In this document: piece after piece, positions 59,584-59,743 of the stretch
How positions within the stretch are numbered: position 1 is the first letter of the stretch
Layout of the letters: each line of letters begins with the position of its first letter
Source of the DNA: Escherichia coli
Lineage (GTDB): Bacteria > Pseudomonadota > Gammaproteobacteria > Enterobacterales > Enterobacteriaceae
DNA: 64,000 bases
Direction: 5' to 3' (one strand)
Assembly: GCF_045037415.1 (NCBI RefSeq)
Contig: NZ_CP173438.1
Program-made: the position numbers and the translations under genes
The notes under the pieces: model-generated
Seen by the model: the letters and a program-made list of their open reading frames with translations, nothing else
Databases searched by the model: none
What the model was told of the DNA's origin: nothing

Positions 59584-59743
59584 TCGCGCTACTTAACTCT
59601 GCATGTCGCTGGCTGGTCGCCGCGGCAACTTCGCGACCTGATGTGCGGCTGATTGCTGAAGCGGCACAATGTGCACGAGAAGGATAAAAAAACATCAGCG
59701 CCTTAAGGGGCGCTCAAATTGGTGGCAAAGTGCACATTGTTTA

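What the first reader, a model, noticed from the sequence alone, without database searches (positions are those of the whole stretch)
59668..59738. Nested inverted repeat forming an orphan minus-strand terminator-like structure upstream of pepE
AATGTGCAC (59668-59676) and GTGCACATT (59730-59738) flank an inner hairpin AGCGCC-TTAAGG-GGCGCT (59697-59714) that on the minus strand is followed by a T7 tract. No minus-strand gene ends here, since sorE and pepE are both on the plus strand. It could be the 3' end of an unannotated small or antisense RNA, a relic terminator brought in with the sor island, or a structured regulatory element of the pepE leader.
Basis: seen in the sequence. Interest (0 to 1): 0.4.

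Follow-up and report, generated by a model that had tools for sequence, protein, structure and literature searches.

The report
Dead gene's hairpin beside a BIME-1
The "nested inverted repeat" is a by-product of three ordinary things lying side by side (the tail of a mostly deleted gene, that gene's old end-of-operon hairpin, and a common E. coli repeat called BIME-1), so it is not a new RNA gene or regulatory element.

Summary
The outer arms are in fact 11 nt perfect (59666-76 / 59730-40), the inner hairpin is at 59697-59714, and an A7 run (T7 on the minus strand) lies 4 nt from the stem. The structure is a composite, not a unit.

1. The left outer arm lies in the last codons of a 112-nt dead remnant (59576-59687) of sdhL, an eighth plus-strand sor-operon gene. 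sdhL is intact in about 177 of 5426 E. coli genomes and in many other genera.
2. The inner hairpin is the conserved stem-loop found 3-13 nt after the sdhL stop codon across at least 8 genera. It is a plus-strand operon-end hairpin. In some genera it is shared with a convergent ccdB gene.
3. The right outer arm belongs to the flank of a 153-nt BIME-1/RIP repeat (59714-59866) that abuts the hairpin.

The 11/11 outer pairing is lineage-specific (8-11/11 among strains, with no compensatory changes) and is within chance expectation. The T7 run is recent: the stop codon TAA plus a G>A change plus one extra A. No minus-strand promoter or RNA family was found.

Verdict: ordinary and explained. "Relic terminator of the sor island" is partly right, but on the plus strand.

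Side observation: at 3 of 3 loci compared, BIME-1 sits just after a terminator hairpin, and that hairpin is duplicated.

The parts
58354..59583 (+). sorE (L-sorbose 1-phosphate reductase), the last intact gene of the sor operon
   Evidence: ORF list; RefSeq annotation of the identical strain SK1144
59576..59687 (+). Dead remnant of sdhL (shikimate dehydrogenase-like, the eighth sor gene). The ATG overlaps the end of sorE. The 5' piece runs to about 59636 and the 3' piece from about 59637 to 59687. About 700 nt are deleted, the remnant is out of frame, and there is an internal TAA at codon 7.
   Evidence: Intact 813-nt gene in FUJ80154 and MEI003; alignments A1 and A4; translation with stops; NCBIfam PRK12550 1e-140 and Pfam Shikimate_dh_N; named sdhL in PMC12817954
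59666..59676 (+). Left outer arm ACAATGTGCAC. It lies inside the last codons of the sdhL remnant. The ancestral sequence is ACAATTTGCAC, coding for ..AQFAREG*.
59685..59692 (+). sdhL stop codon TAA (59685-59687) overlapping the A7 run (59686-59692), which is the minus-strand T7. The ancestral context is TAAGAAAC.
59697..59714 (+). Inner hairpin AGCGCC-TTAAGG-GGCGCT: the conserved post-stop-codon stem-loop of the sor-sdhL operon (-10.8 kcal/mol)
   Evidence: same position and GCGCC/GGCGC core in Pseudocitrobacter, Citrobacter, Kluyvera, Raoultella, Klebsiella and Enterobacter
59714..59866 (+). BIME-1 / RIP repeat (153 nt), made of: left flank motif 59714-59743; Y-type REP (CTAC end) 59744-59777; L linker 59778-59812 with an IHF-consensus-like site at 59790-59802; Z1-type REP (GTAG start) 59813-59842; right flank motif 59843-59866
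   Evidence: 23-51 or more places per E. coli genome; 83% identical over 150 nt to the K-12 fepA-entD copy and to the tkt copy; definition from PMC3333891 and PMC1187871; weak Rfam ES036 hit on the L linker
59730..59740 (+). Right outer arm GTGCACATTGT, part of the BIME-1 left flank motif. The family consensus is GTGCGCGTTGT, and most E. coli strains have GTACACATTGT here.
59866..59872 (+). AGCGCCT: a second copy of the hairpin's left arm plus one base, immediately after the BIME-1. It is probably the truncated remains of a duplicated hairpin.
   Evidence: Direct repeat D3, TCAGCGCCT at 59695-59703 and 59864-59872; full hairpin duplications at other BIME-1 sites
59875..59964 (+). pepE upstream region shared with K-12 and other genera. 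It contains the cross-genus conserved block ACATCGTGAGCCATGTCAG.
59965..60654 (+). pepE (dipeptidase E)

Best explanation
The nested inverted repeat is not one element. It is the junction of three unrelated pieces.

(1) The sor operon originally ended with an eighth gene, sdhL. In this strain, and in about half of all E. coli, roughly 700 nt of sdhL have been deleted. A 112-nt dead remnant is left, and its last codons happen to contain the left outer arm.

(2) Ten nucleotides after the sdhL stop codon sits the operon's own GC-rich 3' stem-loop, which is the inner hairpin. It acts on the plus-strand sor transcript as an end-of-operon structure, either a terminator hairpin or a block to 3'-to-5' exonuclease decay.

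(3) A BIME-1/RIP repeat inserted directly at the 3' foot of that hairpin in the Escherichia lineage, before the gene was deleted. Its flank motif supplies the right outer arm. Its two REP stem-loops now probably share the job of ending and stabilising sor mRNA and insulating pepE from read-through.

The perfect 11/11 outer pairing and the minus-strand T7 run are recent, lineage-specific accidents of drift in non-coding DNA.

Shown: the anatomy, the homologies, the conservation, the order of events and the strain variation. Inferred: the RNA-level function of the hairpin and the REPs.
For: Intact sdhL lies between sorE and pepE in FUJ80154 and MEI003 and in 177 of 5426 genomes. The window form is present in about 2681-2689 genomes.

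Alignments A1 and A4 place the two remnant pieces, the stop codon and the left arm inside sdhL. The remnant has stops and is out of frame.

sdhL is intact in 35 or more genomes of other genera. Of 35 examined, 23 have a hairpin of -10 kcal/mol or stronger starting 3-13 nt after the stop, and 20 have the same GCGCC/GGCGC core. Pluralibacter and K. indica have different hairpins at the same place.

sdhL expression is sorbose-dependent in ST648 (differentially expressed with L-sorbose), consistent with its belonging to the sor transcription unit (PMC12817954).

The segment 59714-59866 is a dispersed repeat with at least 23-51 copies per genome. It is full-length homologous to the K-12 fepA-entD and tkt copies and fits the published BIME-1 definition.

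E. whittamii, E. albertii and two divergent Escherichia genomes have intact sdhL plus the hairpin plus BIME-1 at the same junction, so the insertion predates the deletion.

The outer arms score 11/11 only in the window and SC418, and 8-10/11 in four other E. coli strains, with no compensatory changes. Chance expectation is 1.7 such pairs per window.

The A-run is A6 in four of six strains, and TAAGAAAC in all intact-gene alleles.

REPs acting as partial terminators and as stabilisers of upstream mRNA in tandem gene pairs are documented (10.64898/2026.03.23.713779; PMC3333891).
Against: No transcript data were available, so the RNA-level role of the hairpin is inferred from position and conservation only.

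On the plus strand the hairpin is not followed by a U-tract in this strain (CAAAUUGG), so it is not a canonical intrinsic terminator here.

In the other Escherichia species that still have intact sdhL the hairpin has partly decayed (3-5 of 6 Watson-Crick pairs). This weakens the case for strong current selection on it once a BIME-1 is present.

Invariance of the hairpin among E. coli remnant alleles is weak evidence, because those alleles are 94-100% identical overall.

The origin of the FUJ80154-type allele (intact sdhL, half hairpin, no BIME-1, 17 extra nt) is not resolved.
Confidence: 0.85

Rival explanations
1. A functional minus-strand intrinsic terminator. The hairpin plus T7 ends an unannotated antisense or small RNA that starts in the BIME-1 or pepE-promoter region and runs towards sorE.
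For: The consensus scan flags it as terminator-like on the minus strand: 6-bp stem, 5 GC pairs, tail GATGTTTTTT. The minus strand folds at -29.2 kcal/mol, z = -4.6. In Klebsiella, Citrobacter and Kluyvera the orthologous hairpin does sit at the 3' end of a minus-strand gene, ccdB.
Against: The T-run begins 4 nt after the stem. It is A6 in four of six strains and is absent (TAAGAAAC) from all alleles with intact sdhL and from all outgroups, so it overlaps a stop codon and arose after the gene died. No sigma-70-like promoter was found on either strand in 59300-60200. No Rfam hit. No minus-strand gene ends here, and there is no ccdB remnant in E. coli.
Confidence: 0.07
2. A structured cis-regulatory element of the pepE leader or upstream region, such as an attenuator or a protein-binding palindrome controlling pepE.
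For: It lies 225-300 nt upstream of the pepE ATG. The pepE TSS is not mapped in K-12 (PMC3688515). A K-12 promoter predicted by genomic SELEX lies in K-12-specific sequence that the sor segment replaces (PMC3946193), so pepE transcription in sor+ strains could start elsewhere.
Against: K-12 and other sor-negative strains have pepE without this sequence. Across genera the hairpin stays 3-13 nt after the sdhL stop, whatever lies between it and pepE: ccdAB, 120 nt of unrelated DNA, or a BIME. The only pepE-linked conserved block starts at about 59884. The outer stem varies without compensation.
Confidence: 0.04
3. The 75-nt unit bounded by the 11-nt perfect arms is a small mobile element (MITE-like) or a recombination site, with the arms as terminal inverted repeats.
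For: It has perfect 11-nt terminal inverted repeats and lies at the edge of a strain-variable segment.
Against: There are no other copies. A sensitive search with 59655-59750 finds the unit only at this locus, and the second place reported in some genomes (the one inspected, H70/L005 downstream of tkt) matches only the BIME-1 portion. The left arm is ancestral coding sequence and the right arm is part of the BIME-1 flank. The arms are imperfect in most strains. There is no target-site duplication around 59666-59740.
Confidence: 0.01
4. The arms are auxiliary SorC operator half-sites at the distal end of the operon. AATGTGCA also occurs twice upstream of sorC, which could allow repressor looping.
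For: Four of the six AATGTGCA occurrences in the window are in the sor locus. The sorC upstream region has palindromes TGCACA-NN-TGTGCA at 53697-53710 and 53840-53853.
Against: AATGTGCA is not enriched: 6 observed against 4.15 expected. The 14-nt palindrome pattern has no match at 59666 or 59730 even with 2 mismatches. The arms derive from unrelated sources, coding sequence and a repeat flank, and they differ between strains.
Confidence: 0.02

Closest known systems
BIME-1 / RIP (RIB) elements at the 3' ends of E. coli transcription units (Gilson/Bachellier nomenclature; Boccard & Prentki 1993 and Oppenheim 1993, as cited in PMC3333891 and PMC2892488)
   Same: One Y and one Z1 REP in inverted orientation (CTAC...GTAG). 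A roughly 35-nt L linker with an IHF-consensus-like site. About 150 nt in total. Many copies per genome. Present or absent between strains. Located just after the last gene of an operon and next to a terminator-like hairpin; RIPs with an associated 'REPt' terminator are annotated in K-12.
   Different: Nothing essential. This copy is somewhat diverged: 83% identical to the fepA-entD copy, and its Y REP reads GGAATGAAGCC instead of GGCGTGAACGCC. IHF binding was not tested.
Operon-terminal stem-loops, i.e. intrinsic terminator hairpins shared by convergent genes
   Same: A GC-rich 6-8 bp stem and a 4-7 nt loop, starting 3-13 nt after a stop codon and conserved across genera. In Klebsiella, Citrobacter and Kluyvera it sits exactly between the convergent sdhL and ccdB stop codons.
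   Different: In this window there is no U-tract on the plus strand, because a BIME-1 follows directly. The gene it served is a 112-nt remnant. The U-tract on the minus strand is a recent by-product, not an ancestral feature.
REP325 in the yjdMN operon, a dual terminator and stabiliser in a tandem gene pair (bioRxiv 10.64898/2026.03.23.713779)
   Same: REP hairpins lie between two co-oriented genes (sorE/sdhL remnant, then pepE). They are expected to limit read-through and to protect upstream mRNA.
   Different: [quoted passage not shown] Here there is a single BIME-1 and no expression data.

Membership tests
Intrinsic (Rho-independent) terminator, minus strand | GC-rich stem-loop | tested here: met
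   6-bp stem with 5 GC pairs and a 6-nt loop
Intrinsic (Rho-independent) terminator, minus strand | U-tract immediately 3' of the stem | tested here: inconclusive
   The T7 run starts 4 nt after the stem (GATG spacer). It passes the loose scan rule, but the spacing is atypical. The run is A6 in four of six strains and absent in intact-gene alleles and outgroups.
Intrinsic (Rho-independent) terminator, minus strand | Lies at the 3' end of a transcription unit on that strand | tested here: not met
   No minus-strand gene ends here. No promoter-like site on either strand in 59300-60200. No Rfam RNA. Transcript data were not available.
Operon-terminal hairpin (plus strand) of the sor-sdhL operon | Stable stem-loop directly after the stop codon of the last gene, conserved in orthologous loci | tested here: met
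   It lies 10 nt after the sdhL stop in the window. In 23 of 35 outgroup genomes a hairpin of -10 kcal/mol or stronger lies 3-13 nt after the stop, 20 of them with the same core; different hairpins occupy the same place in Pluralibacter and K. indica.
Operon-terminal hairpin (plus strand) of the sor-sdhL operon | U-tract after the stem (needed for it to be a canonical intrinsic terminator) | tested here: not met
   The window has CAAATTGG after the stem. Some outgroups without ccdAB are T-rich after the stem (5 of 8 T in C. portucalensis, Citrobacter sp. wls619, Citrobacter MGH106, Raoultella BIGb0138, K. indica), but most are not.
Operon-terminal hairpin (plus strand) of the sor-sdhL operon | Transcripts actually end or are stabilised there | not testable with these tools
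   Needs Term-seq, 3' RACE or mRNA half-life measurements in a sor+ strain on sorbose.
BIME-1 / RIP | One Y-type and one Z1-type REP in inverted orientation with GTAG/CTAC tetranucleotides | tested here: met
   REPs at 59744-59777 (ending in CTAC) and 59813-59842 (starting with GTAG), aligned in full length to the K-12 fepA-entD BIME and to the tkt copy. Definition in PMC3333891.
BIME-1 / RIP | Long L linker carrying an IHF site | tested here: met
   The 35-nt linker contains ATTCAATATATTG at 59790-59802, which matches WATCAANNNNTTR at 12 of 13 positions (read from the sequence). The linker is homologous to the L linker of the other copies. IHF binding itself was not tested.
BIME-1 / RIP | Dispersed multi-copy family; one copy per locus; present or absent between isolates | tested here: met
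   23-51 or more places per genome. Absent from FUJ80154-type alleles and from P. vendiensis; present in the opposite orientation in P. faecalis. PMC1187871.
MITE with the 11-nt arms as terminal inverted repeats | Several copies of the whole unit, flanked by target duplications | tested here: not met
   Single locus only. No duplication around 59666-59740.
SorC-operator-like palindrome | Match to the TGCACA-NN-TGTGCA palindromes found upstream of sorC | tested here: not met
   No match at the arms with up to 2 mismatches. The operator assignment of the sorC-upstream palindromes is itself only an inference.

The most novel reading that the evidence does not exclude
The hairpin/BIME-1 junction in this finding may be one instance of a general and apparently undescribed insertion rule. 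The roughly 153-nt BIME-1 integrates at the 3' foot of a GC-rich terminator hairpin and duplicates the whole hairpin, giving a structure-defined 'target duplication' of 16-22 nt.

Evidence from filled versus empty alleles at three of three loci examined (tkt-prohibitin, rlmC-artJ, yqjF-yqjG):
- The empty allele has one terminator.
- The filled allele has hairpin, then BIME-1, then hairpin plus T-tract.

Further evidence:
- Two more sites (L098, L126) show the same flanking direct hairpin copies.
- At the sor locus the second copy is truncated to AGCGCCT.
- In Pseudocitrobacter a BIME-1 in the opposite orientation starts at the same nucleotide after the orthologous hairpin.

This would imply hairpin- or cruciform-directed staggered cleavage, for example by the REP-associated Y1 transposase, as the long-sought in vivo insertion mechanism of BIME-1. 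It would also mean that BIME-1 spread systematically rewires operon ends.
Probability: 0.3. Interest if true: 0.55.

Novelty: already known. Interest (0 to 1): 0.12.

Why it matters
For the finding itself, very little is at stake. It removes a candidate "orphan terminator / antisense RNA" from the list and replaces it with three routine annotations that RefSeq leaves blank here: an sdhL pseudogene remnant, an operon-terminal hairpin and a BIME-1.

It is a useful caution. A perfect 11-nt inverted repeat with a good folding z-score can arise from a pseudogene tail and a repeat flank drifting together.

It also corrects a statement in the recent sor literature. sdhL is not simply "absent" from most sor+ lineages, because a 112-nt remnant remains.

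The side observation would matter more if it is new. [quoted passage not shown]

Tried and rejected
- Rfam scan of 59000-60500 at E up to 10. Only a sub-threshold ES036 hit on the BIME-1 linker and a meaningless RRE hit.
- Promoter scan. No promoter-like site on either strand.
- MITE idea. A sensitive search with 59655-59750 found the unit at a single locus, so it was rejected.
- SorC-operator idea. AATGTGCA is not enriched, and the sorC-upstream palindrome pattern is absent at the arms, so it was rejected.
- CRP-site search to locate the pepE promoter. There were 201 matches against 225 expected, which is uninformative, so I dropped my initial CRP class II promoter guess.
- Literature on the pepE TSS. 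It is not mapped, and only a SELEX-based prediction exists in K-12-specific sequence.
- Inverted duplication as the origin of the nested repeat. The segments between the arms and the hairpin are unrelated (20 vs 15 nt with no similarity, read), so it was rejected.
- Deriving the FUJ80154-type allele from the BIME-1 allele by deletion between the TCAGCGCCT repeats. This does not fit, because FUJ keeps 17 nt that the BIME-1 alleles lack. It is left unresolved.
- Boccard & Prentki 1993 (PMC413762) could not be read.
- Not used: the protein homology and representative-library searches, structure prediction and fold comparison, the PDB search, and covariance-model building. The question was settled at the DNA level.

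Full report
**1. Observation**

- The outer inverted repeat is 11 nt and perfect: ACAATGTGCAC at 59666-59676 and GTGCACATTGT at 59730-59740, 53 nt apart.
- The inner hairpin is AGCGCC-TTAAGG-GGCGCT at 59697-59714.
- An A7 run at 59686-59692 gives, on the minus strand, a hairpin followed by GATG and then T7.
- The consensus scan reports this as the only minus-strand terminator-like site in 59300-60200, and finds no promoter-like site on either strand there.
- The 87-nt stretch folds at about -29 kcal/mol on both strands, with z around -4.4.
- No Rfam family reaches significance.

**2. Context**

- The window is identical here to E. coli SK1144.
- The genes are rluF (minus strand), sorC-D-F-B-A-M-E (plus), pepE (plus) and yjbB (minus).
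- K-12 lacks the sor genes. Its rluF-pepE spacer shares only the last ~90 nt before pepE with the window, from about 59875 onwards.
- The structure therefore lies in the strain-variable sor segment, which is present in about 2,680 of 5,426 complete E. coli genomes.

**3. The left half is the tail of a dead gene**

- In some strains (FUJ80154, MEI003; 177 genomes in all) an eighth plus-strand gene lies between sorE and pepE. It is annotated as shikimate 5-dehydrogenase.
- It is an SDH-L-type protein: NCBIfam PRK12550 at 1e-140, plus Pfam Shikimate_dh_N.
- A 2025 study calls it sdhL. That study finds it sorbose-induced only in ST648 and describes it as absent elsewhere (PMC12817954).
- Alignment shows that the window keeps only the two ends of this gene.
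  - The ATG at 59576 overlaps the sorE stop, and about 60 nt of the 5' end remain.
  - About 50 nt of the 3' end remain, up to the stop codon TAA at 59685-59687.
  - About 700 nt are missing, the frame is broken, and there are internal stops.
- The left outer arm lies in the last codons. Every allele with an intact gene reads ACAATTTGCAC (..AQFAREG*).
- The A7 run is the stop codon plus its 3' context. Intact alleles read TAAGAAAC. Remnant alleles read TAAAAAAC/T (A6) in four of six strains, and TAAAAAAAC (A7) in the window and strain 042.

**4. The inner hairpin is the conserved end-of-operon stem-loop**

- sdhL is intact downstream of sorE in many genera.
- In 23 of 35 outgroup genomes examined, a hairpin of -10 to -19 kcal/mol starts 3-13 nt after the sdhL stop.
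- Twenty of these have the same GCGCC/GGCGC core, with variable loops (TTAACN, AGGGAG, GAG) and variable stem extensions. They come from Pseudocitrobacter, Citrobacter, Kluyvera, Raoultella, Klebsiella and Enterobacter.
- Pluralibacter and K. indica have unrelated hairpins at the same position.
- Neither an A-run before the hairpin nor a T-run after it is general.
- In Klebsiella, Citrobacter, Kluyvera and P. vendiensis a convergent ccdB-ccdA toxin-antitoxin pair follows, and the ccdB stop codon overlaps the last two bases of the stem (Pfam CcdB 7e-25 and CcdA 3e-24). In those genera the hairpin is shared by two convergent genes. E. coli has no trace of ccdB.
- The hairpin therefore belongs to sdhL and the sor operon, not to pepE.

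**5. The right half is a BIME-1**

- The segment 59714-59866 is a dispersed repeat with at least 23-51 places per genome.
- It aligns over its full ~150 nt with the K-12 fepA-entD copy and a tkt-downstream copy.
- Its anatomy is: a flank motif, a Y-type REP ending in CTAC (59744-59777), a 35-nt L linker with ATTCAATATATTG (12 of 13 matches to the IHF consensus), a Z1-type REP starting with GTAG (59813-59842), and a second flank motif.
- This matches the published BIME-1 / RIP definition: about 140 bp, one copy per locus, present or absent between isolates, and found at the 3' ends of transcription units (PMC3333891, PMC1187871, PMC2892488).
- The right outer arm lies in the left flank motif. 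Other copies read GTGCGCGT(T/C)GT at that position.

**6. Order of events**

- E. whittamii, E. albertii and two divergent Escherichia genomes have intact sdhL, the hairpin and a BIME-1 at the same junction.
- The BIME-1 therefore inserted first and the gene was deleted later.
- Only then did the post-stop G>A change and the extra A create the A6 or A7 run.

**7. The outer stem is not maintained**

| Genome | Outer-arm pairing |
|---|---|
| Window, SC418 | 11/11 |
| VCSW5 | 10/11 |
| 042, DSM103246 | 9/11 |
| 118UI | 8/11 plus one G-U |
| Other Escherichia with intact sdhL (three scored; E. albertii could not be scored) | 7-10/11 |

- No change is compensatory.
- The differences in the BIME flank are G>A transitions at CG sites.
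- A starting complementarity of 8/11 between two 11-mers somewhere within ±60 nt is expected by chance (my calculation, about 1e-3 per register over thousands of registers).
- A perfect 11-mer pair with a loop of 100 nt or less is expected 1.7 times per window.
- A single T>G change in dead coding sequence completed the match. A quasipalindrome template-switch mutation could have produced it, but that is speculation.

**8. Mechanism (inferred)**

- On the plus-strand sor transcript, the hairpin and the two REP stem-loops form the 3' end region.
- By analogy with documented REP behaviour, which includes partial Rho-dependent termination and protection of upstream mRNA in tandem gene pairs, they would limit sorbose-driven read-through into pepE and stabilise sorE mRNA.
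- On the minus strand, the hairpin plus T6-7 might stop stray antisense transcription. Nothing indicates a dedicated transcript.

**9. Rivals rejected**

- MITE: the unit occurs at a single locus.
- SorC operator: the motif is not enriched and the sorC-upstream palindromes are not matched.
- pepE leader element: the hairpin is linked to sdhL, not to pepE. The pepE TSS is, however, unmapped, so a small residual probability remains.

**10. Side result**

- I sampled BIME-1 junctions with one metagenome pattern scan: 120 loci, which collapse to about 9 distinct sites.
- A GC hairpin lies 0-1 nt from the element's left end at 6 of those sites.
- The same site-specific hairpin is repeated in direct orientation after the right end at 5 of the 8 non-sor sites.
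- Filled and empty alleles were compared at three loci: tkt-prohibitin, rlmC-artJ and yqjF-yqjG.
  - The empty allele has a single intrinsic terminator.
  - The filled allele has hairpin, then BIME-1, then hairpin plus T-tract.
  - The extra length is 170-177 nt, which equals the BIME-1 plus one hairpin of 16, 18 or 22 nt.
- At the sor locus the second copy is reduced to AGCGCCT (59866-59872).
- In P. faecalis a BIME-1 in the opposite orientation begins at the same nucleotide after the orthologous hairpin, while P. vendiensis has none.
- The literature held here notes RIPs with an associated 'REPt' terminator and REPs inserted within small palindromes in other species (PMC3733652). It says that the in vivo insertion mechanism is not established.
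- I found no description of hairpin duplication, but the key 1990s papers could not be read.

**11. Verdict**

- Novelty: the components are all of already-known kinds.
- Interest is low (0.12).
- The BIME-1 hairpin-duplication pattern is the only part worth following up.

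Noticed in passing
L005 1480-1680 vs L092; L100 650-1069 vs L213; L155 2496-2915 vs L214; also L098, L126; window 59695-59872: Full-length BIME-1 elements sit immediately 3' of intrinsic-terminator hairpins, and the whole hairpin (16-22 nt, specific to each site) is duplicated in direct orientation on the far side, with the T-tract remaining after the right-hand copy. This was seen in three of three filled/empty allele pairs and at two further sites. The loops of the two copies often differ, and one site (L098) shows a compensatory C-G to T-A change between copies.
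   Followed up: partly
L012 3318-3500 (Pseudocitrobacter faecalis) vs L056 (P. vendiensis) vs window 59714: A BIME-1 in the opposite orientation starts at the same nucleotide after the orthologous sdhL hairpin in P. faecalis, while P. vendiensis has none. This looks like an independent insertion at the same hairpin foot.
   Followed up: partly
L017 (E. albertii), about 3320-3640: At least two or three tandem BIME-1 copies follow the sdhL hairpin, although BIME-1 is described as occurring once per locus. The hairpin there carries the same G>A change in both arms (AGCACC / GGCACT), which breaks pairing.
   Followed up: no
L044 3342-3952 (Klebsiella michiganensis); also Citrobacter, Kluyvera and P. 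vendiensis loci: A chromosomal ccdB-ccdA toxin-antitoxin pair is inserted between the sor-sdhL operon and pepE, convergent with sdhL. The ccdB stop codon overlaps the shared hairpin. Kluyvera cryocrescens (L026) appears to keep only a decayed ccdB fragment (read by eye, not checked by homology search).
   Followed up: partly
window 59576-59687: RefSeq annotates nothing between sorE and pepE, and a 2025 paper calls sdhL absent from most sor+ lineages. In fact a 112-nt sdhL remnant persists in about 2,680 genomes. Its start codon still overlaps the sorE stop (ATGATTAA).
   Followed up: yes
L003 5033-5075 (FUJ80154-type allele): The allele with intact sdhL has only the left half of the hairpin, no BIME-1, and 17 nt (TGTTTGCCACGCCAGAA) that the BIME-1 alleles lack. 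It cannot be derived from them by a simple deletion. Its sdhL is slightly closer to Pseudocitrobacter (97% aa) than to other Escherichia (95-96%). Its origin is unresolved, and horizontal replacement is possible.
   Followed up: partly
window 53697-53710 and 53840-53853: Two palindromes TGCACA-NN-TGTGCA (one with a single mismatch, one perfect) lie 143 nt apart upstream of sorC, the second just before its ribosome-binding site. They are plausible SorC operators. This was not checked in other genera.
   Followed up: no
window 33692-33828: A second, shorter BIME-1 core (without the extended flank motifs) lies between a stop codon (33678-33680) and a canonical terminator AAAGCCGGATGATCATCCGGCTTTTTT (33802-33828).
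   Followed up: no
window 59884-59904 and orthologous loci: The block ACATCGTGAGCCATGTCAG upstream of pepE is conserved from E. coli to Raoultella, Kluyvera and Enterobacter, whatever lies upstream of it. It is probably the core pepE regulatory site: an FNR ChIP peak maps at the pepE start in K-12, and the TSS is unmapped.
   Followed up: partly
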